From IMG/VR virus record IMGVR_UViG_3300011008_000999: a stretch of 64,000 nucleotides of DNA, one strand, 5' to 3'. Below are positions 23,667 to 63,656 of this stretch, one piece after another. This DNA comes from a virus (taxonomy: Duplodnaviria; Caudoviricetes). Both the position numbers and the translations under genes were made by a program. The notes under the pieces are model-generated. The model was not told the origin of the DNA. It made no database searches and saw only the letters and a program-made list of their open reading frames with translations. Every line of letters begins with the position of its first letter. Positions within the stretch are counted from its first letter, which is position 1.

Positions 23667-25154
23667 TTATGACTTAGTCTCTGCATAAAACATTTTTCTA
23701 AGAGTTACTGCATCTCTAGGAAGTAAGTCTCTCTTTTCAGCAGTATTCTCATTATAGAGCTTCTTACAAAATTCATAGAACTTAAGCGCAAGCTCATCTT
23801 CAATAAGGTCTTCTCTCTTGTACTTTCCATACTTAAGAGTTCCCTGCGCAATAGATCTCATAAACTTCCAGAATTTATAGAATGCAAGCTTAACCTTAAC
23901 CATATAACCATCAGCAGCTTCTACTACAAATCCTTCGATCTGACGACCTTCGTATAAGTAATCATTTGCAGTAACAGTTTTGTACCAATCTACAAATTCT
24001 TCGTAAGTATCAATTACACACGCCTTAGTCTTATACTTAAGACCAAGATCCTTTGCTATATCTACAAGCTGCTCATAAGGAAGCTGTTCAAAGTCCATCT
24101 TATTCTTAATAATTGCTATCAAGAAAAGCTGATTTTCAGCATAATCAATAATGTGAGGATCATTCTTCATATCTACATTTTCAAAGACAAAAGTAACATT
24201 CTCATTTTTAGAGAAGTTTTTCATCTTTTCAATGTTTTCAGAAGTCATATTTCTCTCAATTGCTTCTCTTAACCATACTGAGAAATCACCTTCAGGTGAA
24301 GACTTAGTAGTAACAAAAAGATCATCAGTCTCTTCATTATATGAAGCAAGACCAAGATAACCATTTTCCTTTACATAGCAAGTTACAGGAAACTTCATAG
24401 TCTTAAGGTTACCAAGCTGAGTAGATTCCATTTCACCGATATTAAAGAACTTATTAAAACCACGCGCAACGATCTTACCTAACTTAGTGTTAATGTAAAG
24501 ACCTCTTGCAACTATAGTCTGATTATCCCATACACCAGAATAGAAAGCTTCTCTAGTAAAGTTAAATGATGAGATATTTCCATAAGACTTTTCAGCCACA
24601 CAAGGATTAGATCTCATATTGTCAATAACTTCATCTATATCATCAAGCTTTACTTCTGATTTAACAGTAGAAATCTTATCAAATTCTTCAGGCTTAATAA
24701 CCTTTACATATGAAGGAACTTCACACTGTTCAAAGTTATGATACATTCTATCAATAACTTCTTCAGGAACACGTCTAAATGCTTCACGAGATGCATTTCT
24801 TCTCTTGCACTCTTCAATAGGAAGATCAGTGAAATCAATCACAAATGCATGATAATTGTATCTCTCAACAAGTGACTTATAAGAGTTAATTTCTCTAGTA
24901 GTTGAGTGAGTTGCGTCTATAATAGTATAAAGACCAAATGACATACGAAGTTCAAGTAACTGATTAAGATACTTGAATACCTTGCCATTATATTCCTGAG
25001 AAATTTCAGATACTTCAGTAGAACCTGAATAAGAGTACATAAACTGAAGTCTAAGATCATCAGTTGAAATGGTATAAGGTTCTAACTTGTTGTTCTTTAT
25101 GAAAGTTGATTTTCCGCAACCAGGTGCACCACGAAGAATTATTAATGATCTCAT
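23667..25154 (-). CDS. Polynucleotide kinase - RNA ligase (T4 Rnl1-like) fusion
   Basis: N-terminal GAPGCGKS P-loop and IIDATH; C-terminal ARGFNKFFN, KENG (motif I), EGFVV, KVK. Confidence 0.88.
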   Translation of the reverse strand: MRSLIILRGAPGCGKSTFIKNNKLEPYTISTDDLRLQFMYSYSGSTEVSEISQEYNGKVFKYLNQLLELRMSFGLYTIIDATHSTTREINSYKSLVERYNYHAFVIDFTDLPIEECKRRNASREAFRRVPEEVIDRMYHNFEQCEVPSYVKVIKPEEFDKISTVKSEVKLDDIDEVIDNMRSNPCVAEKSYGNISSFNFTREAFYSGVWDNQTIVARGLYINTKLGKIVARGFNKFFNIGEMESTQLGNLKTMKFPVTCYVKENGYLGLASYNEETDDLFVTTKSSPEGDFSVWLREAIERNMTSENIEKMKNFSKNENVTFVFENVDMKNDPHIIDYAENQLFLIAIIKNKMDFEQLPYEQLVDIAKDLGLKYKTKACVIDTYEEFVDWYKTVTANDYLYEGRQIEGFVVEAADGYMVKVKLAFYKFWKFMRSIAQGTLKYGKYKREDLIEDELALKFYEFCKKLYNENTAEKRDLLPRDAVTLRKMFYAETKS

Positions 25155-44092: not shown

Positions 44093-44260
44093 TTATACTT
44101 CTTCCAGTTATCTTGACACTCCCCATGCCTAAAGGCAGGGGATTCTTGTTTCAGCCACTACTGCGTTCCTAACAAGTAACCTTGTTGGCTCGTCTTACAC
44201 AATGTCCACAAGCGTAAATTCCCGTATGCCCTACGGTATTTTTATATGTTAGGCTACTGA
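44093..44260 (-). ncRNA. Predicted TnpB omega/reRNA scaffold plus guide
   Basis: Structured right end downstream of tnpB; guide would be flanking GATAACTGGAAGAAGTATAA; 5-prime boundary approximate. Confidence 0.65.
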
Positions 44261-45415
44261 AAGCCCTTTGTTTAAGATGTTTAGGCTTGCATTAGTGTCT
44301 CTATCGTGCTTTGTATGGCATTTAGGACACTCCCATTCTCTAACAGAGAGGTTCTTTACAAGTGGATTTTTATATCCACAACAGCTACATGTTTGACTAC
44401 TAGGATACATGGTCGGAACTTTAATTATTTCATTTCCATACCAAGTGGCTTTGTATTCAAGCATTGTAAAGAATTTAGACCATGAGCAGCTTGCTATGTG
44501 TTGCGCAAGCTTATGGTTGCGCACCATCCCCTTAATATTTAAGTCCTCTATACAGATAGTTTGGTTTTCGCTAACAAGTATAGTTGACTGTTTTTGAAGG
44601 AAATCGTTGCGCTGATTAGTTATCTTCTCATGGACTTTAGCTACTTTAACACGCTGTTTATTGCGATTATTAGAACTTTTCTGCTTACGAGAAAGCCTGC
44701 GTTGTTCTCTGATAAGTTTACGCATAGATTTCTCTAAATACTTAGGGTTGTTGACAATATTGCCGTTGCTGTCGGAGTAAAATTCTTTAATACCGACATC
44801 AATGCCAATCACGCCGCCTGCATTTGGTCGATATTCGGGTTCAAAATCAACATTCAGCACTACAAAGTATTTACCTGTGGGAGTGTGTTCTATCGTAGCA
44901 TTATTGATACGTCCCACTTTCATAGACTGTTTGACTTTGACATATCCAAGCTTCGGGAGCTTAATATAATTCCCGACTATGCGAATGTTATCACCTTGGT
45001 TAATGGTCCTGTAGGACTGATGATTATTATGCTTACTCTTGAACTGCGGATGTCTTGCACGTTTCTCAAAGAAATTTTTAAATCCACGGTCTAAATCTCT
45101 CAAAGATTGTTGAAGTGCAATAGAATCAACAACTTTCAAAAAAGCAAAATCATCAGACCTTTTTAATTCCGTAAGCATAGCAGATGTTTGATTGTATCCT
45201 ATTTTTTGACCATTAACGTAGGCATTATTACGCATAGCAAGACCTTTGTTGTAGATGAGTCTGCAACAACCAAGTGTTTGATTTATTAAGTTTTGCTGCT
45301 CTTTATTAGGATATATCCTAAACTTAACACCTTTATTCATTGGCTAATCCTTTACATATTGGCTATTGTCGCTTATATCCCCATAGCTAAAGCTAGGGGT
45401 TTTACGCTCGTCTTG
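44113..45415 (-). mobile_element. IS200/IS605-family non-autonomous element (TnpB only, IS1341-like)
   Basis: Left-end hairpin CCCCTAGCTTTAGCTATGGGG just after TTAT; right-end hairpin CCCCTGCCTTTAGGCATGGGG ending GTGTCAA; no tnpA. Confidence 0.9.
44249..45340 (-). CDS. tnpB: RNA-guided endonuclease TnpB
   Basis: KFRIYPN HTH; RuvC GIDVG, IEDL, DRDTNA; Zn ribbon CSCCG/CPKC. Confidence 0.96.
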   Translation of the reverse strand: MNKGVKFRIYPNKEQQNLINQTLGCCRLIYNKGLAMRNNAYVNGQKIGYNQTSAMLTELKRSDDFAFLKVVDSIALQQSLRDLDRGFKNFFEKRARHPQFKSKHNNHQSYRTINQGDNIRIVGNYIKLPKLGYVKVKQSMKVGRINNATIEHTPTGKYFVVLNVDFEPEYRPNAGGVIGIDVGIKEFYSDSNGNIVNNPKYLEKSMRKLIREQRRLSRKQKSSNNRNKQRVKVAKVHEKITNQRNDFLQKQSTILVSENQTICIEDLNIKGMVRNHKLAQHIASCSWSKFFTMLEYKATWYGNEIIKVPTMYPSSQTCSCCGYKNPLVKNLSVREWECPKCHTKHDRDTNASLNILNKGLSVA

Positions 45416-47774: not shown

Positions 47775-47890
47775 TAGAGCGAGTTGGATTCGAACCAACG
47801 ATTGGCTGTTTCCCTTGAATTAGGTAGCGGTTAAAATCACAAAAATGATTCATTTTTATGACAGCTGCCTTCCCACTTGGCTATCGCTCT
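47775..47890 (-). ncRNA. tRNA-like RNA with a 51-nt anticodon loop carrying the shared 25-nt motif
   Basis: Acceptor AGAGCGA/TCGCTCT, D arm GCC..GGC, stem GCTGT/ACAGC, T arm GTTGG-TTCGAAT-CCAAC. Confidence 0.8.
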
Positions 47891-47965: not shown

Positions 47966-48405
47966 ATATAATATCACGTTACGTCTAACGTTAACTACGT
48001 ATCCGATTTTCATATATCAACTATACGTTTCATTGATATACTAGATTGACCTTTTTACGTCCGTCGACAACCATTAAGGAAGGTATTGTTCAATCACTCC
48101 TCGAACCTGTACGGGCACCACCCCGTGGTCTGTTCATATCACGCCTCTGGTTATTACTGCAACCTACACAGTTCTCTCTCGATCCATCTGCTTGAGGCAC
48201 TAATTTAAGGTTCCACATACTTTACAGAGCTTTTCCCATTACTCCGACCTTCTGCTTGGGTCTAACGTTATATCCTGTATAGATGAAAGGTGGTTTAATC
48301 CATTCACCGAGCTAATAGTCAACATTTCGTATAACTAATCGCTTCTGCTACCATACAGAATCGTATCCTACGGCCATCTTTTTGGTAAAGGTTCAGGCGA
48401 CCTTA
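47966..48405 (-). ncRNA. Candidate large structured ncRNA (about 440 nt)
   Basis: ORF-free, GC-elevated, several hairpins, lies between tRNA-His and tRNA-Gln. Confidence 0.5.
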
Positions 48406-49442: not shown

Positions 49443-52400
49443 TTATAAATCATCTACAGTATAAGATAGTGTGGTAGATTCAACTGCATTAGTATCTGGA
49501 TTAGTGTAAGTAATAGTACAAGTATATGTACCATTAGAAGTAACATCAATAGATGCAGAAGTAGATCCAGTTGACCATACATAAGATGCATTTATAGTAG
49601 ATACTACTGACAGTGTAGCTTTACCAATTTCAGCAGTATTTCTATTTAGTGTAAATGTAGCCTCAACATCATTATCACTATGACCACATCCAATCTTAGA
49701 AACCATTTCAGTATATGATTCTATATGAGAAACAGTTCTATTACTAAAGTTACTTGGATTATTCATATCTTCTGCATAAGTACTAGGTGATGAATAAGTA
49801 GCATACGTAGATATCTTTTCATCTAATTCACCTGTAGCGTAGTTATATCCATCATTATCTTCAAGCCATCCACCGCTCATTATAACAGGATTTTCTATTC
49901 TATCTAGTTGACCATTTACGAAAATAGAAACGTTAGAATATTGATGGAAATATCCATTACTATTCATCTGACAATGAGGAGATGATCCTTTTGCTTGAAT
50001 CATAACTACCCAGTCCTGATTCCAGTTACGTAACATACCATAATACTTATGATAAGGTGCATAAGGTAAACACTGATGTACACAAACATCATCATGTATT
50101 TCAGGAACCAGTACATAACAACTATCATTGTGTACATGTTTTAATTCATACATAGATGTAGCATTTACTACATGATGTTCTGAACTAAGAATATTATTAC
50201 AAGTTGTACACTTAGTTACAATATCATATGAACCTTTAGAATTAGGACTTGGAGCAATATTATTCTGAATTAAAGTAACTGTAGTATGACCTAAAGGACT
50301 AGTTTCAGAATCTGTATAAGAATCTCCACATCTATCACATTTATGTATTGTATATCCAGCCTTAGTACATGTTGGATTAACTACAGTTTCCTTATAATCG
50401 TGTCCTAATGGATCAATATCTTCAGTCTTAGTTCTACTACAATATTCACATGTATATGATACTGTTCCAGGTTCCAAACAAGTAGCTGTCTTAATAAATT
50501 TACCAGTTTTCCATTTATGTTCTACTATAGGCAATTCATCTGTAATATATGAATCTCCACATCTAGAACATAGATGTTCAGTATGACCACCATGTTCACA
50601 TGTAGGCTTAACTACTGTTTCTTTATAATCATGTCCTAAAGCAGGAACTTCGACAATTTCGTCTTTAGATATAGTTTGACAATATGTACAATATGTAATC
50701 TTATGATATATACCAGGTTTATCACATGTAGGAGCTTCTTCAGCTGATTGTGTAGTAAATTCAGTAAATTTACATCCACCTTGCTCATCATAGAATATTG
50801 CCTTATCTAAAGCTCTTAATGTATCTACTAGTTCTGTAAATGACATGTCGTTAGTAACCGTAATACCTGCTCTTTCGAGTGCAGCACTTTGTGTCGCTAT
50901 AGCGGTTACTAACTTCTGTTTACCTATAGCTACACATTGAAAATTTTCGTCAAGCTGCTGATGATATACATCCAAGTTATTTTTGTAAGCTTTAAGTAAC
51001 TCTAATAATTCTTGATCATTTTCGTAGTTAGATAATGCTAATGTATTATAATTAGTATCAATAGCACTACTTAATGTACTAAACTTAGTATTAAAGTTAG
51101 TAAAATTACTAGAAATTAACTCATTCACTGACCCAAACTGAGAATTAATAATCTCATTCTGGTTAGCAATATTAGAATCTACTGCTGAAGTAATATTCTG
51201 ACTTACTGTGTCCATTTTACTAGATAGTAAGTTATGATATTGTTCAACCTGATTACCTAAATCAGTAAACTGTAAAGAAATGTTATTGTCTAATGTAGAA
51301 ATTAATCCTTGGTAAGTAGTCTGAAGATCATTTACCTTATTGATTAACTTAGTATTGTTATCAATACTAGTAGTGGTTAATGCATTCTGTACATTAACAA
51401 GTTTTGTTATTGTATCATTAAACTCAGTTTTACTCTGATTTGATAATGCTACAATTAAGCTATTAACATCTCCAATAGTTTCATCAAAATGAGTCTGAAT
51501 ATCATTTAATTCAGTCTGAATCTTATTAAACTCTAGTTGAACTTCTTCTAACTTCTTTTCATTTAAAGTATTAAGTAAGTTCTGAATGTCAGTATTAGCA
51601 GTATCTACTTCAGATGAAATATTATCTAATTCACCTATTAATACCTCTTTAGCATCGGTAATACCTTGATTAATAGCTTCAAAATCTGTATCAAGAGTAT
51701 CATATAAATCAGATGCAAATTCATCAATGTGATTATTAAGATCTACTTTGAACTGTGTGATACTATTCTTTAAAGTTGTGTCATTTTCAGTTATAGTATT
51801 ATTAAGTGTAGTAAGATCGTCATTAATAGTATCAAGTTTAGTGTTTACTTCAGTAAACTTGTCTAAAATATCTTTAGACTGCTCTTCATCTACTTTCTCA
51901 ATAAGTTCAACAATAGTCTTAGTAGAATCAGATATCTGAGTAGACAAATCATCTACACCAGTAGTCAAACTATCAGTAGAAGTAGTAATTTGTTCAGATA
52001 ATTTAGTGAAATTTTCCTTAAGAAGTTCTTTGTTATCATCATTTGTCTTTGATAAATACTCATCTAACTTAGTAGAAAAGTCATTGATTTTCTTAATAGT
52101 ATCATCATATTGTGTTTTATTATCTGATTTCAGAGTATCTAATTCTGAAGAAATAGAATTCAATTTAGCAACTAAATCATCATATTTCTTCTGTGCATCA
52201 GCTGTCTGACCTTCATTTACTAAGTTAATTACTTCAGTAAGAGTATCTTTAGCTGATGTTATTTTATTTTGTAATTCCTTTGTATCAACTGTGAAAGTAT
52301 TTATTGTAGTGTTTATATCCTGAGATAAATTATCAAAACTAGTATCTATTGTATCTTCTTGCTTAACTACAATAGTACTAATTCCATTTATAGTATCTTT

Positions 52401-52610
52401 ACTAGAATTTACATTGACTTTAACCGTATCTAACTGTGTTGCCATATCAGTTAAATCTGCAGATATTTGTTTATTAGTTTTATCAAGTTCAGCCATAGCA
52501 ATTGCGCGCTGATTCCAAATAGAAAAACCAATTATTGCAATTAGTAAAGATAAAATTACTACAGGAATAACTACTTTTACTGTTGAGCGTTTATCCTTAT
52601 TCTTCTGCAT
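49443..52610 (-). CDS. Large membrane-anchored coiled-coil protein with Cys/His-rich repeats
   Basis: N-terminal TM, about 540 aa of heptad-like sequence, repeats GHDYKETVV.PTC...G...H.C.RCGDSY, Ig-like end. Confidence 0.85.
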   Translation of the reverse strand: MQKNKDKRSTVKVVIPVVILSLLIAIIGFSIWNQRAIAMAELDKTNKQISADLTDMATQLDTVKVNVNSSKDTINGISTIVVKQEDTIDTSFDNLSQDINTTINTFTVDTKELQNKITSAKDTLTEVINLVNEGQTADAQKKYDDLVAKLNSISSELDTLKSDNKTQYDDTIKKINDFSTKLDEYLSKTNDDNKELLKENFTKLSEQITTSTDSLTTGVDDLSTQISDSTKTIVELIEKVDEEQSKDILDKFTEVNTKLDTINDDLTTLNNTITENDTTLKNSITQFKVDLNNHIDEFASDLYDTLDTDFEAINQGITDAKEVLIGELDNISSEVDTANTDIQNLLNTLNEKKLEEVQLEFNKIQTELNDIQTHFDETIGDVNSLIVALSNQSKTEFNDTITKLVNVQNALTTTSIDNNTKLINKVNDLQTTYQGLISTLDNNISLQFTDLGNQVEQYHNLLSSKMDTVSQNITSAVDSNIANQNEIINSQFGSVNELISSNFTNFNTKFSTLSSAIDTNYNTLALSNYENDQELLELLKAYKNNLDVYHQQLDENFQCVAIGKQKLVTAIATQSAALERAGITVTNDMSFTELVDTLRALDKAIFYDEQGGCKFTEFTTQSAEEAPTCDKPGIYHKITYCTYCQTISKDEIVEVPALGHDYKETVVKPTCEHGGHTEHLCSRCGDSYITDELPIVEHKWKTGKFIKTATCLEPGTVSYTCEYCSRTKTEDIDPLGHDYKETVVNPTCTKAGYTIHKCDRCGDSYTDSETSPLGHTTVTLIQNNIAPSPNSKGSYDIVTKCTTCNNILSSEHHVVNATSMYELKHVHNDSCYVLVPEIHDDVCVHQCLPYAPYHKYYGMLRNWNQDWVVMIQAKGSSPHCQMNSNGYFHQYSNVSIFVNGQLDRIENPVIMSGGWLEDNDGYNYATGELDEKISTYATYSSPSTYAEDMNNPSNFSNRTVSHIESYTEMVSKIGCGHSDNDVEATFTLNRNTAEIGKATLSVVSTINASYVWSTGSTSASIDVTSNGTYTCTITYTNPDTNAVESTTLSYTVDDL

Positions 52611-52629
52611 GATTATCTCTCCAAATAAA

Positions 52630-52655
52630 TTCTGCCTGTATTTCTACAGGCAGAA
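52630..52655 (-). terminator. Hairpin/terminator between the two coiled-coil paralogs
   Basis: TTCTGCCTGTA-GAAA-TACAGGCAGAA. Confidence 0.7.
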
Positions 52656-52664
52656 ATAAATAAG

Positions 52665-55607
52665 TTATTTTACATGTCCACATACGCCGCATTTATCATG
52701 AACTTGATATAATCTGAATGTACCATTTATTCCAGTTCCCGCATTGACATTAGTCAATCCAGCTACTTCATTCATATATGTATCAGTAGTTCCTGGTAAT
52801 CTATGAGAAGTAATCCAAGCAGGTGAACCTGCCCAACCACCTAAGAATATCATAGCGCTACCTTCTGTGTACCAAGTACCCTGTCCATTAATTGATACAG
52901 CAGTACCACTTCCAATATTACCATAATGCCAATATCCAGCTCCAGATGGACCTCTAGCATCTCCAGCATAACATGATAAATATATTTGAATAGATGGCTG
53001 TTGTAAATATACCTTAGCTGTTTGATTATATGTATGTTCAGCTAAAGGAATATCTTGGCTATCATAATGATATCCACATGCGCAAGTATAGGTATGTGTT
53101 CCTTTTACTGTACAGGTTGAATTAGTCTTTACTGTAGCAGTATAGGTATGATTTGTAGAAAATACTTGATGACATCTACTACACCAAGTATGAGCATTTG
53201 CTTGTCCAGCATATACTTCATTATGACCTAAAGCTGTAGTATAATCAGTATTAGCTAGTTTATCTCCACATCTTGTACAAGTATGAGTTGTATATCCCTG
53301 TTCTGTACAAGTAGGAGCTACTACAACTGAATCATACTCATGTCCTAAAGCCGGAGTAACTCTTTGAGTAGATGATAATTTTGCATTACATCTATCACAA
53401 TAAACTACTTCATTATGAATTCCAGTAAGAGTACATGTAGGTAAACTTACAGGTTCATTTACAAATTCTCTAGGATCATGACCTAAAGCTGGAACTATAT
53501 TATCGTCATAATAATAATCACAAGGTATTCCAGTATTAGGATCTATATTAGTGCAATAATGTCTAGTACATCCTTGTTCAGTACATGTAGGTGGGATTAC
53601 CGCTGTACTTAAATTATGTCCTGTTTTAGGTATAACTACCCAAACATTTGTAGCATCTGCTTCACAAGTTAAACAATATTGAACATCATTGTAACCTCCA
53701 TCTTCTTCACAGGTAGGTTCAATTCTATTTCTAACTTGTCTTTCAAGTACACAATACTTAGGATCTACTGGAATATGAATATCCAATTCTAGATTAACAA
53801 TTCCATCAGCTAATTCGTCCCAAGTTTCTGTACCATCCCATCTTTGACCATCCGCTCTAACTGATCCTTTGTCGTTAAGTGCGGATGCTATGTCAGATTT
53901 GATCTTAACGACATTTTGAAAAGACTGTTCTGCATTAGTATTATAAGAGTCAACAGATTGCTGATACTGTGTGATTAGTGCTGCAATTTCATCTTTATTT
54001 TCTTGTTCCTGCTGGCTCAAATTATTATAGTTAGTAGTTAACTGATTACTAATAGAATTGAAGTCATTTTCAATATTTTGACTTTGTGTAGACAAGCTGC
54101 TATTAACATCATCAAACTTGCCGTTAATTGTAGAGGTCTGATTGTTAATACTCGTATTAACACTTTCAGTAATTTGAGTATTTACAGAGTCTAATTTCTC
54201 ATTAATACTAGCATTACCATTAGATATAGTAGTAGATAAATCGGAAAAAGACTCATCTACACTAGTCTGTAATTCTGATATAGACTGTTCATATTCAGTT
54301 TTCATAGTATCTAACTTATTCTGAAGATCCGTTTTAGATGTATTACTTACTTCAGTTAAATCAGTCTGAATACTAGTAAGTTTATCAATAGTATTGCTAT
54401 ATTCTGTAGCATTCTGCGTAGATAAATCGCTAATAAGAGTACTAATACTTGCCAATGTACCGTCAAAATGTGTTGTTATAGTATCTAAGTGTGTCTGGAT
54501 ATCTTCAATCTTATTTGGCAAATCATCTGCATTATCTTCTTCAATCTGATTGATTAAATCAGTAATTTCAGTTTTTGCTGTAGATATTTCTGTAGAAAGA
54601 TTAGAGATATCTGTTTCTAAAGTAGATACAGAATTACTAATATTATCATTTACTGTTCTGAATTCTACAGTTAATTTTTCATCAAGAAGACCTTCAAATT
54701 CATCTAAGTGATCATTGACCTCGGTAGTAAAGTTATTTATTTGCTCAGTAACCTCACTATGCTGTGTAGCAGTAGTCTCAGATAAGCTTAAAATAGAACT
54801 ATTTACTGTATCAATATCTGTACTTAATGCTGTAAATTGTTCATTTAAGTATTCTGGATTATTACTTTTAGTAGATTCAATTAGTGCTGTGATTGTCTCA
54901 GTAGATGTACTAACTGTTGTAGAAATAGAATTAAGATTTGCAGTTAATGTGGTTAAAGTAGTATCTACTTTTGTTGTCATTTCTGAAAAATTAGTTTTGA
55001 TTGTCTCAGCTAATTCTTCATTAGACGTTTCTAAATATTTATTTAATTCAGTCTGAAAATTATTTAGCTTAGCAATGATCTTTTCATATGAATCTTTATT
55101 AGCTTTAGACATTTCATCTATCTGTCCGCTAATATCATTAAGCTTAGCTAAAATGGCTTCAAACTTCGTCATTATCTCTGCGTTCTGACCTTCGTTGATT
55201 TCCGTTATTAAAGTATTTATGTCAGTTTTTGTAGTTTCTACCTGTTTAGATAAATCAGACAAGTCAGTTGTCATCTGATTAAGAACTGTATCTATGTCCT
55301 CATTGACAGATGTAAAACTATAGTTTAATGTTTCACTTGTTTCATTTATAGTAGTTTTAATATTCTCGACTTCACTTTGGTTAGTGTCGATAATACTACT
55401 CATACTATCAAGTGTCACTGACATAGTTTCTAACTGCTCTTTTATTTGAGCTGTTGACGATAGTGGAGTAACGGTATCATCTATCGTCGTCATTGGTGGA
55501 CGCTTATAAGCAGAGTATAAGCCTAGTCCAAGTAAAAGACATATAATAAAAATAGAAAAAGCTATTAGTATTATACGCCTTTTTGGTGGATGAAATTTCT
55601 TATCCAT
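52665..55607 (-). CDS. Large membrane-anchored coiled-coil protein with Cys/His-rich repeats (paralog of 49443..52610)
   Basis: Same architecture; PALGH...PTCTEQG...C..CG repeats. Confidence 0.85.
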   Translation of the reverse strand: MDKKFHPPKRRIILIAFSIFIICLLLGLGLYSAYKRPPMTTIDDTVTPLSSTAQIKEQLETMSVTLDSMSSIIDTNQSEVENIKTTINETSETLNYSFTSVNEDIDTVLNQMTTDLSDLSKQVETTKTDINTLITEINEGQNAEIMTKFEAILAKLNDISGQIDEMSKANKDSYEKIIAKLNNFQTELNKYLETSNEELAETIKTNFSEMTTKVDTTLTTLTANLNSISTTVSTSTETITALIESTKSNNPEYLNEQFTALSTDIDTVNSSILSLSETTATQHSEVTEQINNFTTEVNDHLDEFEGLLDEKLTVEFRTVNDNISNSVSTLETDISNLSTEISTAKTEITDLINQIEEDNADDLPNKIEDIQTHLDTITTHFDGTLASISTLISDLSTQNATEYSNTIDKLTSIQTDLTEVSNTSKTDLQNKLDTMKTEYEQSISELQTSVDESFSDLSTTISNGNASINEKLDSVNTQITESVNTSINNQTSTINGKFDDVNSSLSTQSQNIENDFNSISNQLTTNYNNLSQQEQENKDEIAALITQYQQSVDSYNTNAEQSFQNVVKIKSDIASALNDKGSVRADGQRWDGTETWDELADGIVNLELDIHIPVDPKYCVLERQVRNRIEPTCEEDGGYNDVQYCLTCEADATNVWVVIPKTGHNLSTAVIPPTCTEQGCTRHYCTNIDPNTGIPCDYYYDDNIVPALGHDPREFVNEPVSLPTCTLTGIHNEVVYCDRCNAKLSSTQRVTPALGHEYDSVVVAPTCTEQGYTTHTCTRCGDKLANTDYTTALGHNEVYAGQANAHTWCSRCHQVFSTNHTYTATVKTNSTCTVKGTHTYTCACGYHYDSQDIPLAEHTYNQTAKVYLQQPSIQIYLSCYAGDARGPSGAGYWHYGNIGSGTAVSINGQGTWYTEGSAMIFLGGWAGSPAWITSHRLPGTTDTYMNEVAGLTNVNAGTGINGTFRLYQVHDKCGVCGHVK

Positions 55608-60610: not shown

Positions 60611-60770
60611 TCCTACGATAGTGCACCTAACAGAAGATGTAGCATTTACCGGCGCTCAACCTTTACTGTGCTATGAACGACTTTGCTCCAAGTTGAGCCG
60701 AGGCGGCTGGAACCATGAAACAAAACTTGTAGAATCCAAAATGAATAAAATGACAAATCACTTTGGAAAG

Positions 60771-61129
60771 TGGAGATGAGGGGAATCGAACCCCTGTCCG
60801 AAATACTTACTCAGAGCTTTCTACACGTTTATCTTGCTTTTAATAAGTTATCTAACCATCTAAACAGGCGAACTGATTAGCAACTAACTATTGTGGTCTT
60901 ATGTATGAATACTTTTGTCATCCTCTTCATACAGCAGCGATCATCTTTGGCCATAAGAGATACGACCGCAATACTCTTATGACTTAACTCTCCGAAGAGA
61001 GGTTGCTGCGATTAGGCAGCTGCGTAACCGTAGTTAGCGTTTATTGTTTGGTGTCGGATTCAAGAGGTGTCCACCATCCTCTACGTGCTTTTCTCGTTGC
61101 TTGTACCCCGTCGAAACCTTTACATCCCC
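60771..61129 (-). ncRNA. ssrA: tmRNA
   Basis: 5-prime GGGGATGTAAAGGTTTCGAC, 3-prime GGGGTTCGATTCCCCTCATCTCCA, tag frame ANYGYAAA* at 61012-61038. Confidence 0.95.
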
Positions 61130-61669: not shown

Positions 61670-61804
61670 TAGAGATGGTAGGAATCGAACCTACAATTCT
61701 ACACTATATACACATACATTCGACTTACTAGTATATCAAATATATGTTTTTGATGTATATAGAACGAGATCACATCCGGCGTCTTCCTATTCCGCCACAT
61801 CTCT
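61670..61804 (-). ncRNA. tRNA-like RNA (Leu-type D arm) with long insertion replacing the anticodon arm
   Basis: AGAGATG/CATCTCT, GCG-GAATAGGAAGA-CGC, GTAGG-TTCGATT-CCTAC, inner CTATATACA/TGTATATAG. Confidence 0.7.
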
Positions 61805-62841: not shown

Positions 62842-63006
62842 AGAGTGTACTAATCCTCAGCTTCGAGTATGGCTAACCCTTAGGGAGTCGAACCCACCGA
62901 TAAGATACAGAATAGTAATCAGCACATCTGTTTTAACTAGGTGATTAAGCTAGCGACTTATCTGGACTTTAGATCATCTTGCAAAACAATCTGTCGTCTA
63001 CACTCT
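62842..63006 (-). ncRNA. tRNA-like RNA with internal T loop and extra arms
   Basis: AGAGTGTA/TACACTCT closing stem, GATAAG/CTTATC, GGG-TTCGACT-CCC. Confidence 0.55.
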
Positions 63007-63009
63007 AAA

Positions 63010-63132
63010 GAAGGATGGTAGGACTCGAACCTACAGTGTACCGGCTCCCTAAGCATTAGAATTTTGGTTGCTGTCTTTATCACGAAAATGATAGTGTCAA
63101 AACGGCGCGTCTGCCAATTCCGCCACATCCTT
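63010..63132 (-). ncRNA. tRNA-like RNA with 48-nt motif-bearing insertion in the anticodon stem
   Basis: AAGGATG/CATCCTT, GCG-GAATTGGCAGA-CGC, GTAGG-TTCGAGT-CCTAC; motif at 63068-63092. Confidence 0.8.
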
Positions 63133-63135
63133 CAA

Positions 63136-63259
63136 CGACTGAGGAAGGAATCGAACCTTCACCTTTTCCGTGACAGGGAAATTTATTTAAGTTTGTTTGC
63201 TGTCTAAATCACGGTGATGATTCTGAAATATAAATATGCTTCCATTACACCACTCGGCC
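63136..63259 (-). ncRNA. tRNA-Asp(GTC)-like RNA with 53-nt motif-bearing insertion between D arm and anticodon arm
   Basis: Intact arm TTTCC-CT GTC AC-GGAAA, G73; insertion 63182-63234; motif at 63197-63221. Confidence 0.8.
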
Positions 63260-63303: not shown

Positions 63304-63417
63304 TTGCAGGAAATGGAATCGAACCATTGTCTCGTCCTATATGTGTGGAATATAAGATAGCTGTTAAAATCACGAAAATGATTCATTTTACGCGCTCTAC
63401 CACTAAGCTATCCTGCG
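63304..63417 (-). ncRNA. tRNA-like RNA with motif-bearing insertion and initiator-like C1:A72 acceptor
   Basis: CGCAGGA/TCCTGCA, GCTT..GAGC, AATGG-TTCGATT-CCATT; motif at 63358-63382. Confidence 0.8.
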
Positions 63418-63532: not shown

Positions 63533-63656
63533 ACATGGTGGAAGGATTCGAACCTTCGACGACTTTAAATTGTGCATAATCTAAAGTTTGTATGTAGCAA
63601 CCCACTTAAGAAATCTACTTGATGCACCAAATAGAATTTCCGCAGCTACCACCACG
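63533..63656 (-). ncRNA. tRNA-like RNA with elongated D and anticodon arms
   Basis: CGTGGTG/CACCATG, GTAGC/GCTAC, ACTTTA/TAAAGT, GAAGG-TTCGAAT-CCTTC; first unit after the promoter at 63667. Confidence 0.65.

What the first reader, a model, noticed from the sequence alone, without database searches (positions are those of the whole stretch)
63136..63259. Excising the insert restores canonical tRNAs: possible non-canonical bacterial-type tRNA introns
Seen: deleting 63182-63234 (53 nt, flanked by a self-pairing ATTTAT/ATAAAT stem) leaves a 71-nt tRNA-Asp with intact TTTCC-CTGTCAC-GGAAA arm and G73 (one C:A mismatch in the acceptor). Deleting 63055-63102 (48 nt) from the neighbour gives a perfect CCGGC-TTAGGGA-GCCGG arm (anticodon AGG). 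The inserts are far too short for group I/II introns. The window encodes a PNK-RNA ligase. Inference: protein-dependent splicing, or a functional tRNA with an extra arm. The other two motif copies do not yield a clean U33 loop, which argues against universal splicing.
Basis: partly seen in the sequence, partly recalled or inferred. Interest (0 to 1): 0.7.

Follow-up and report, generated by a model that had tools for sequence, protein, structure and literature searches.

The report
Protein-binding RNA handle inside phage tRNAs
Four tRNA genes of a giant rumen phage carry a ~50-base insert that is probably not an intron but a conserved RNA "handle", found in related phages next to a Ro60-like protein gene, so these look like tRNA-shaped parts of an undescribed Y-RNA-like particle; splicing is not excluded.

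Summary
Deleting 63182-63234 leaves a 71-nt tRNA-Asp(GUC), and deleting 63055-63102 leaves a 75-nt tRNA-Pro(AGG). Across 21 related tRNA families from other phages, one excision restores a strict canonical anticodon arm in 13, against 0.45 expected by chance.

The intron reading has no positive support. The insert is a portable module: a covarying 7-bp helix (…UCAU / GUGA…) followed by ACAGCAA. The same module closes free-standing small RNAs elsewhere in this 332-kb phage and in many other phages. There it clusters directly upstream of DUF2828+vWA genes, whose predicted fold matches Ro60/Rsr over its full length. In the tRNAs the helix is capped by a loop, a circular permutation of the free-standing form.

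The insertion point varies (nt 26/27 to 31/32). Six or more conserved families have no canonical loop. No BHB motif, EndA or RtcB was found, and phage RNA ligases do not track the inserts.

This phage keeps only the last 32 codons of its DUF2828 gene, next to an IS200/IS605 element.

Best reading (0.6): tRNA-scaffolded, Y-RNA-like RNP modules. Protein-dependent splicing remains possible (about 0.15).

This scan has flagged the same handle/DUF2828 system in at least 65 other genomes. I found no paper describing it.

The parts
63136..63259 (-). C: tRNA-Asp(GUC)-like gene carrying the handle arm between nt 26 and 27
   Evidence: The G001 ortholog (L184) shows compensatory acceptor changes (G5:C68 to U5:A68; C4:A69 to C4:G69) but has C37 in the loop.
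63182..63234 (-). Insert of C (53 nt): closing helix ATTTAT/ATAAAT, helix H 63206-63223, core ACAGCAA 63197-63203
   Evidence: Read from the sequence; motif statistics; helix covariation.
63010..63132 (-). D: tRNA-Pro(AGG)-like gene with a Leu-type D arm; handle arm inserted in the anticodon stem between nt 29 and 30
   Evidence: Orthologs L184 (loop UUUGGGA) and L146 (UUAGGGA) keep an identical split arm, and L146 has an entirely different acceptor and T stem.
63055..63102 (-). Insert of D (48 nt): helix H 63078-63093, core ACAGCAA 63068-63074, flanking pairing UUUUG/CAAAA
63304..63417 (-). B: tRNA-like gene abutting tRNA-Thr. Helix H 63367-63384, core ACAGCUA 63358-63364, followed by an 8-bp hairpin with loop UCCACAC (no canonical anticodon loop)
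   Evidence: 98% identical to its ortholog in G001.
47775..47890 (-). A: tRNA-like gene next to tRNA-Gln. Helix H 47834-47851, degenerate core ACCGCUA 47825-47831, no U33 solution
   Evidence: The G001 ortholog (L036) has an intact ACAGCAA.
23667..25154 (-). PNK (AAA_33) fused to an Rnl1-type RNA ligase, 495 aa.
   Evidence: Comparable ligases are absent from G002 and G004, which also carry handle-tRNAs.

Best explanation
The inserts are copies of a portable, protein-binding RNA module, not introns.

The module is a 6-7 bp helix whose loop-proximal part reads ...UCAU / GUGA..., then 2-4 nt, then single-stranded ACAGCAA. In free-standing RNAs of this and many other phages, this helix joins the two ends of the RNA and encloses a variable cargo. 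In the four tRNA genes here the helix is capped by a loop and grafted as a side arm onto the 5' strand of the anticodon stem (nt 26-31). The tRNA therefore plays the part of the cargo and scaffold, and the form is a circular permutation of the free-standing one.

Inferred: the array is transcribed with the tRNAs, and the tRNA body supplies RNase P/Z processing and stability. The handle is then bound by a Ro60-like DUF2828+vWA protein. The result would be a Y-RNA-like particle that displays a tRNA look-alike, often with an intact anticodon loop, much as bacterial YrlA does for Rsr. Its role would be in tRNA surveillance or repair, or as bait in the conflict over host anticodon nucleases.

In this phage the partner gene has been destroyed next to an IS200/IS605 element. 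The four RNAs may therefore be orphaned and starting to decay.
For: Shown by computation:
1. The motif is non-random in the window. Helix H covaries across 31 embedded copies: 92% of cells paired against 28-52% in slid controls; 5 of 7 pairs change on both sides; 0 of 500 shuffles reach the score.
2. The same helix+ACAGCAA closes free-standing units at genome 144.9-145.7 kb and 149.68 kb. It also forms arrays in dozens of viral contigs, often 3-6 nt after a tRNA 3' end.
3. ACAGCAW units cluster within about 500 nt upstream of DUF2828+DUF7788/vWA genes, on the same strand. This holds in loci whose proteins are only 28-47% identical: about 21 units in 4 kb against about 12 in 68 kb elsewhere.
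4. An AF2 model of that protein (pLDDT 79, pTM 0.79) has Ro60/Rsr/TROVE chains as its top 11 PDB matches. The matches are full length, with E from 8e-7 to 5e-5.
5. Four of four other phage records with handle-tRNAs encode an intact ~500-aa DUF2828 protein.
6. This genome keeps only the last 32 codons, at genome 147436-147534 (hmmsearch E 0.0024). They are nearly identical to the C-terminus in G001 and lie 143 nt beyond the TnpA+TnpB genes.
7. Two handle cores are mutated here but intact in G001: ACUGCAA in unit 3 and ACCGCUA in A.
8. Families with no canonical anticodon loop still keep the handle and the tRNA frame across many loci. Examples are B, A/L036, the GGCGAGG family (loop of 7 or 6 nt) and L191 (12-nt loop).
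9. A free-standing unit aligns end to end with the Rfam Dictyostelium Class I RNA model, whose consensus is stem-CCUUACAGCAA...stem-CUG (22.4 bits, E 0.04).
Against: - There is no RNA or protein data. Binding of the handle by DUF2828 proteins is inferred from gene neighbourhood and fold alone.
- This phage lacks the proposed partner.
- 13-15 of 21 families keep an exactly restorable 5-bp/7-nt anticodon arm.
- Orthologs differ at the wobble base without changing the amino acid read: Pro A34/U34 and Thr U34/G34. D's 17-nt arm is identical to that of cellular class II tRNAs. This is what one expects of decoding tRNAs.
- An arm at nt 28-31 should clash with the ribosome, so the points above keep splicing alive.
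- C and D lack the A-rich UAAAY stretch seen 5' of the helix in most other copies.
Confidence: 0.6

Rival explanations
1. Protein-dependent tRNA introns. An unknown endonuclease, perhaps guided by the handle or by the Ro60-like protein, removes the arm. The exons are then sealed by the phage PNK-Rnl1 or by a host ligase, giving decoding tRNA-Asp and tRNA-Pro.
For: - Excision restores strict canonical arms in 13 of 21 families, against 0.45 expected (for C and D).
- Orthologs differ at the wobble base only, and the split arm of D is conserved across lineages with different acceptor stems.
- PNK-Rnl1 is present here. An Rnl2-type ligase lies in the tRNA array about 2.3 kb from DUF2828 in G001.
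- An arm inside the anticodon stem should prevent ribosome use unless it is removed (established ribosome-tRNA contacts; inference).
Against: - By inspection, the junctions show no bulge-helix-bulge.
- The insertion point and the distances from junction to handle vary.
- No EndA or RtcB was found in five phage records, and G002 and G004 have no Rnl1, Rnl2 or RtcB.
- The same module occurs in free-standing RNAs that have no exons.
- Six to seven conserved families cannot yield a canonical loop.
- C is redundant with two normal tRNA-Asp(GUC) genes.
- The G001 ortholog of C has C37.
- No intron-less allele was found in viral contigs.
Confidence: 0.15
2. Cis-acting processing signal. The helix+ACAGCAA marks sites where a nuclease cuts at the base of the helix. 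This would release free-standing RNAs and trim tRNA 3' trailers. In the tRNA-embedded form it would open the capping loop and give split tRNAs held together by base pairing.
For: - Free-standing units often start 3-6 nt after a tRNA 3' end, as published for theta ribozymes (PMC10879173).
- Most embedded loops begin with G, matching the G that follows the 3' strand of free-standing units.
Against: - The units are not HDV-like: no P2 partner for ACAGCAA, and no Rfam ribozyme hit.
- The capping loops vary in length and sequence.
- This reading does not explain the strict link with DUF2828 genes.
Confidence: 0.08
3. Unspliced tRNAs with an extra arm that are still aminoacylated and used by the ribosome.
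For: The tRNA frames are intact, including U8, A14, G18G19 and the T loop. The anticodon arms of C and D are canonical.
Against: - An arm emerging at nt 28-31 lies where the 30S subunit contacts the anticodon stem (established structural knowledge; not tested here).
- D lacks the bacterial tRNA-Pro acceptor determinants C1:G72 and A73, having A1:U72 and C73.
- Many families lack a canonical loop.
Confidence: 0.05
4. Selfish miniature insertions, or decaying pseudogenes, with no RNA-level function.
For: In this phage the partner gene is lost. One embedded core (A) and one free-standing core (unit 3) are degenerate.
Against: - Helix H covaries.
- The acceptor stem of C and the anticodon stem of L025a/L007 show compensatory changes.
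- The chimeras are conserved in many lineages, and always sit on the 5' side of the anticodon arm.
Confidence: 0.05

Closest known systems
Ro60/Rsr with Y RNAs, especially the bacterial and mycobacteriophage YrlA tRNA mimics (Rfam RF02553; Chen et al. 2014, PMC4201824)
   Same: A ring-protein fold (TROVE plus vWA) encoded next to small RNAs. The RNAs combine a conserved protein-binding helix with a tRNA-like domain. RNA-repair enzymes lie nearby, an Rnl2-type ligase in G001 and PNK-Rnl1 here, as in the rsr-yrlBA-rtcBA operon.
   Different: - The protein belongs to Pfam DUF2828/DUF7788, not TROVE (PF05731 gave no hit).
- The RNA motif is helix+ACAGCAA rather than GNCGAAN0-1G.
- RF02553 scores only 20 bits against a threshold of 69.
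- Here the tRNA keeps its own ends, and usually an anticodon loop, and the helix is a capped side arm. That is the reverse topology to YrlA.
Class I RNAs of dictyostelid amoebae (Rfam RF01414; Kjellin et al. 2021, PMC7919456)
   Same: [quoted passage not shown] The rest of the RNA is variable, and the 3' end reads CUG/CUUG. A free-standing phage unit aligns end to end with the model.
   Different: - The score is below the Rfam threshold (22.4 against 41.5 bits).
- Class I RNAs are reported only in Dictyostelia, are known to bind an RRM protein, and are not tRNA-embedded.
- The copies in this window are circularly permuted and do not match the model.
Archaeal and eukaryal protein-spliced tRNA introns (EndA/Sen plus RtcB/Trl1), including non-canonical positions (PMC4090602)
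   Same: Short inserts in tRNA genes, some inside the anticodon stem, whose removal restores a cloverleaf.
   Different: No BHB motif and no EndA. The context is a bacterial virus. The insert has a conserved internal motif that is shared with RNAs that are not introns.
Bacterial and phage group I introns in tRNA anticodon loops
   Same: They interrupt tRNA genes. This genome has one, of 692 nt, in tRNA-Leu(UAA).
   Different: The inserts here are 44-53 nt, have no ribozyme core (no Rfam hit), and do not lie within the anticodon loop in C and D.
Theta (minimal HDV-like) ribozymes next to phage tRNAs (PMC10879173)
   Same: Small structured units directly 3' of phage tRNAs. The first base pair of the helix is a G.U.
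   Different: The HDV-like topology cannot be drawn, because ACAGCAA has no 3' pairing partner. No Rfam HDV-family hit was found.

Membership tests
Protein-spliced (BHB-type) tRNA intron | Bulge-helix-bulge at the two exon-intron junctions | tested here: not met
   By inspection of C, D and the 13 strict solutions, the junctions are flush three-way junctions with a closing helix of variable register. No pair of 3-nt bulges 4 bp apart is present. This was not tested with a dedicated BHB scanner.
Protein-spliced (BHB-type) tRNA intron | A splicing endonuclease (EndA/Sen) is available | tested here: not met
   PF01974 is absent from G000-G004, while the controls gave hits in 4 archaea. The host genome is unknown.
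Protein-spliced (BHB-type) tRNA intron | Excision restores a functional cloverleaf | tested here: met
   Met for C and D and for 13 of 21 families against 0.45 expected. Not met for A, B and 6 other families.
Protein-spliced (BHB-type) tRNA intron | Spliced RNA exists | not testable with these tools
   No transcript data are available. The junction pattern found no phage hit in viral or metagenome contigs.
Group I / group II intron | Ribozyme core and a length of 200 nt or more | tested here: not met
   The inserts are 44-53 nt. There is no Rfam intron hit at E<=1.
Y RNA (YrlA, RF02553) | Matches the family model and the Ro-binding motif GNCGAAN0-1G | tested here: not met
   The best RF02553 hit is 20.1 bits (threshold 69, E 0.75) and is explained by tRNA likeness. 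The motif is absent from the inserts.
Y RNA (YrlA, RF02553) | Encoded beside a Ro60 ortholog | tested here: inconclusive
   Relatives carry a Ro60-fold DUF2828+vWA gene inside the RNA array. This genome has only a 32-codon remnant and no TROVE gene.
Y RNA (YrlA, RF02553) | tRNA-like domain joined to the protein-binding helix | tested here: met
   Rfam tRNA hits of 29-50 bits on A-D, with the helix as a side arm.
Dictyostelium Class I RNA (RF01414) | Terminal stem followed by the 11-nt ...UUACAGCAA motif, scoring above the Rfam threshold | tested here: not met
   The design matches, and the free-standing unit L199:3824-3887 aligns over model positions 1-56. The score is only 22.4 bits against a threshold of 41.5. 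The window's copies are permuted and give no hit.
Handle (helix+ACAGCAA) RNAs associated with DUF2828 (uncatalogued; defined in this scan) | Covarying helix ...UCAU/GUGA..., then 2-4 nt, then ACAGCAA | tested here: met
   C and D have exact cores, B has ACAGCUA and A has ACCGCUA.
Handle (helix+ACAGCAA) RNAs associated with DUF2828 (uncatalogued; defined in this scan) | Physical binding by the DUF2828 protein | not testable with these tools
   Only co-location and a Ro60-like predicted fold are available.

The most novel reading that the evidence does not exclude
The handle arm is a removable element. A Ro60-like RNP, or another handle-recognising factor, directs excision of the arm from precursor tRNAs, and a phage or host RNA ligase reseals them. 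That would be the first enzyme-dependent tRNA splicing, or a regulated tRNA on/off switch, known in bacteria or their viruses, and it would use a module shared with amoebal Class I RNAs.
Probability: 0.1. Interest if true: 0.9.

Novelty: new variant of a known kind. Interest (0 to 1): 0.62.

Why it matters
If the best reading is right, many phages carry an uncatalogued counterpart of the Ro60/Y-RNA system.

- The RNA module is portable: it occurs free-standing, with tRNA-like cargo, or grafted into complete tRNAs.
- It has the same design as the unexplained Class I RNAs of social amoebae. That gives both orphan RNA classes, and the large DUF2828 protein family, a testable partner and function.
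- For annotation, such genes should not be called intron-containing tRNAs or pseudogenes.
- This phage is a natural experiment. Its partner gene is destroyed, while a close relative (G001) keeps it.
- If instead the arm is removed, this would be a new kind of tRNA splicing in the bacterial world.

Tried and rejected
- Small self-cleaving ribozymes (hammerhead, pistol, twister, hatchet, HDV-like/theta): no Rfam hit at E<=1. An HDV-like topology cannot be drawn, because ACAGCAA has no 3' partner.
- ARAGORN on all deletion variants: uninformative. It calls a tRNA for almost any deletion and for 5 of 5 shuffled controls. It was replaced by the strict stem/loop test.
- MFE folding of the full-length RNAs: not informative for C and D (z -0.46 and 0.04).
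- Single-sequence AF2 of the DUF2828 protein: poor model (pLDDT 40). Sequence and profile searches of the PDB did not reach Ro60. Only the MSA-based model and Foldseek did.
- Pfam TROVE and DUF2828 searches and a protein search of the genome: negative. The remnant appeared only with tblastn and hmmsearch on six-frame fragments.
- Search for an intron-less allele of D: none in viral contigs. The metagenome scan returned only GC-rich class II tRNAs and unrelated hits.
- A loose genome-wide scan for free-standing units: mostly noise, at about twice the shuffled rate. Only the units at genome 143.2, 144.9-145.7 and 149.7 kb are convincing, and all lie outside the window.
- Literature: no paper on DUF2828 with RNA, or on ACAGCAA-type phage RNAs, in the searchable library.

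Full report
**Setting.** The window is the reverse strand of positions 154971-218970 of a 331,944-bp virus record. The record has 32.7% G+C and direct terminal repeats. It is a jumbo phage with about 45 tRNA genes, a tmRNA and a GOLLD-like RNA. All tRNA genes lie on the window's minus strand.

**Checking the observation.**
- The sequence is as described.
- Gene C (63136-63259) reads: acceptor, D arm, A26, a 53-nt insert, then an intact TTTCC-CTGTCAC-GGAAA arm, a T arm, and G73.
- Gene D (63010-63132) has a 48-nt insert between nt 29 and 30 of the anticodon stem.
- ARAGORN sees nothing in the full-length genes.
- Rfam's tRNA model also hits two further insert-bearing genes: B (63304-63417) and A (47775-47890).
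- A 23-nt motif is shared by all four. It occurs five times at up to 2 mismatches, against 0.11 expected.
- ARAGORN proved too permissive as a test, because it calls tRNAs for most deletions and for shuffled controls. I therefore required a 5-bp stem with at most one G.U pair, a 7-nt loop, U33 and R37.
- Among 21 acceptor-defined families of such genes collected from this phage and from IMG/VR contigs, 13 have a single-excision solution. Shuffling the flanks gives 0.45. Two more have U33 but C37.

**What the insert is.**
- The motif is a hairpin whose stem reads ...UCAU / GUGA..., followed by 2-4 nt and ACAGCAA.
- Across 31 distinct copies the 7-bp stem is 92% paired, against 28-52% when the partner is slid. 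Five of 7 pairs change on both sides, and 0 of 500 shuffles reach the score.
- Two earlier notes on this genome led me to look outside the window. At genome 144.9-145.7 kb lie tandem RNAs of the form 5'-GUGAnnnn-uuaACAGCAA-(35-220 nt)-nnnnUCAU-3', with covarying helices.
- The tRNA inserts are thus the same helix with its two ends joined by a loop. The tRNA takes the place of the cargo, so the form is a circular permutation.
- Pattern scans of viral contigs returned dozens of loci with both forms on the tRNA strand. Free-standing units have the consensus G(G/U)GAC(R)C-NN-ACAGCAA...GUC(C/A)U-G and often start 3-6 nt after a tRNA 3' end.

**Protein partner.**
- In three lineages the last unit is followed directly by a ~500-aa gene with Pfam DUF2828 and DUF7788/vWA domains.
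- I fetched relatives of that protein. Even loci at 28-47% identity have ACAGCAW units packed into the 500 nt upstream, on the same strand. Divergent lineages also contain tRNA-embedded copies, with helix ...UCUUG-loop-AAGA....
- An AF2 model built on a 15-sequence alignment (pLDDT 79, pTM 0.79) has as its top 11 PDB matches only Ro60/Rsr/TROVE structures. These include a Thermus phage Ro60. The matches are full length, with E from 8e-7 to 5e-5 and TM about 0.5.
- All four other phage records with handle-tRNAs that I checked encode an intact DUF2828 protein. In G001, a 394-kb relative of this phage, the gene sits inside the tRNA array with an HNH gene and an Rnl2-type RNA ligase.

**This phage has lost the partner.**
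- Pfam and protein searches of the genome were negative.
- A profile search of six-frame fragments found the last 30 residues at genome 147436-147531 (E 0.0024).
- The translation through the stop codon is nearly identical to the C-terminus in G001.
- An IS200/IS605 element (TnpA plus TnpB) occupies 145,759-147,293, between the last handle unit and this remnant.
- Two handle cores are mutated here but intact in G001: ACUGCAA in free-standing unit 3 and ACCGCUA in gene A. The numbers are small, but they fit relaxed selection after loss of the partner.

**Intron or arm?**

Against splicing:
- The insertion point differs among families: after nt 26, 28, 29, 30 or 31, or in the loop. The distance from junction to handle also differs.
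- The junctions show no bulge-helix-bulge.
- EndA and RtcB are absent from five phage records. Rnl1 and Rnl2 ligases are present in only three of them.
- The module also occurs where there is nothing to splice.
- Families without any canonical loop keep the handle and the tRNA frame across many loci. These are B (8-bp hairpin), A/L036, L191 (12-nt loop), and the GGCGAGG family (7-nt or 6-nt loop).
- The G001 ortholog of C has C37.
- C duplicates two normal tRNA-Asp genes.

For splicing, or at least for selection on the anticodon arm:
- The strict-solution excess (13 of 21 against 0.45).
- Orthologs differ at the wobble base without changing the amino acid read: Pro A34/U34 in D, Thr U34/G34 in another family.
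- D's split 17-nt arm is identical in lineages whose acceptor and T stems differ completely. It is also identical in GC-rich cellular class II tRNAs.
- An arm at nt 28-31 should not fit the ribosome. This rests on established structural knowledge, not on a test made here.

I read this as follows. The chimeras descend from real tRNAs and still present an anticodon loop to some factor (a synthetase, a modification enzyme or an anticodon nuclease). Their common, conserved property is the handle.

**Comparison with known systems.**
- The nearest working analogue is Ro60/Rsr with Y RNAs, in particular YrlA, which couples a Ro-binding stem to a tRNA mimic and lies in an RNA-repair operon (PMC4201824). 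Membership fails on the protein family, the RNA motif and the Rfam score.
- The nearest RNA design is the Dictyostelium Class I RNA. The Rfam consensus is stem-CCUUACAGCAA-variable-stem-CUG, and a free-standing phage unit aligns to it end to end, but below threshold (22.4 against 41.5 bits; PMC7919456).
- Theta/HDV-like ribozymes, group I introns and archaeal-type introns were considered and rejected.

**Verdict.**
The intron interpretation is not supported, though it is not excluded.
- The best explanation is a tRNA-scaffolded, Y-RNA-like handle module that is orphaned in this particular phage.
- This scan has already flagged the handle/DUF2828 pairing in at least 65 other genomes.
- I found no published description.

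Noticed in passing
L213:780-900 and L214 (minus strand, around the match at 175-197): GC-rich metagenome contigs carry class II (long variable arm, A73) Leu-type tRNAs. Their D arm and 17-nt anticodon arm (CCGGC-UUAGGGA/UUUGGGA-GCCGG, that is, Pro anticodons AGG/UGG) are identical to the exons of gene D. ARAGORN does not call them. They may be Leu-bodied tRNAs that read Pro codons.
   Followed up: partly
window 61670-61804 (-): A 135-nt tRNA-like gene (Rfam tRNA, 34 bits) with a D arm of the same type as D. It has a ~60-nt insert that lacks the ACAGCAA handle, so it is a second kind of module on a tRNA scaffold.
   Followed up: no
window 62880-63000 (-) and 63535-63655 (-): Two further ~120-nt units end in a T arm and an acceptor-like 3' strand but have aberrant central parts. 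Neither ARAGORN nor Rfam calls them.
   Followed up: no
window 47969-48404 (-): A ~430-nt ORF-free stretch lies between tRNA-Gln and tRNA-His. It contains a degenerate motif copy (48129-48151, 2 mismatches) and has no Rfam match.
   Followed up: no
window 60768-61129 (-): Phage-encoded tmRNA (139.5 bits) with tag peptide ANYGYAAA.
   Followed up: no
genome 145759-147534 (L001:5759-7534), outside the window: An IS200/IS605 element (TnpA plus TnpB) sits between the last free-standing handle RNA and a 32-codon C-terminal remnant of the DUF2828 (Ro60-like) gene. The close relative G001 has the intact gene.
   Followed up: yes
window 44249-45340 (-): A second TnpB (OrfB_IS605 plus a Cas12f1-like TNB domain) gene inside the window.
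   Followed up: no
genome 143748-144183 (L001:3748-4183), outside the window: A GOLLD-like RNA (93 bits, E 1.5e-23, below the Rfam threshold of 150) lies just upstream of the tRNA and handle-RNA array.
   Followed up: no
genome 147572-148348, outside the window: ARAGORN reports tRNA-Leu(UAA) with a 692-nt intron, so a conventional large tRNA intron coexists with the short inserts.
   Followed up: no
window 49443-55607 (-): Two adjacent very large coiled-coil proteins (1055 and 980 aa) with only low-specificity Pfam matches (apolipoprotein-like and filament-like).
   Followed up: no
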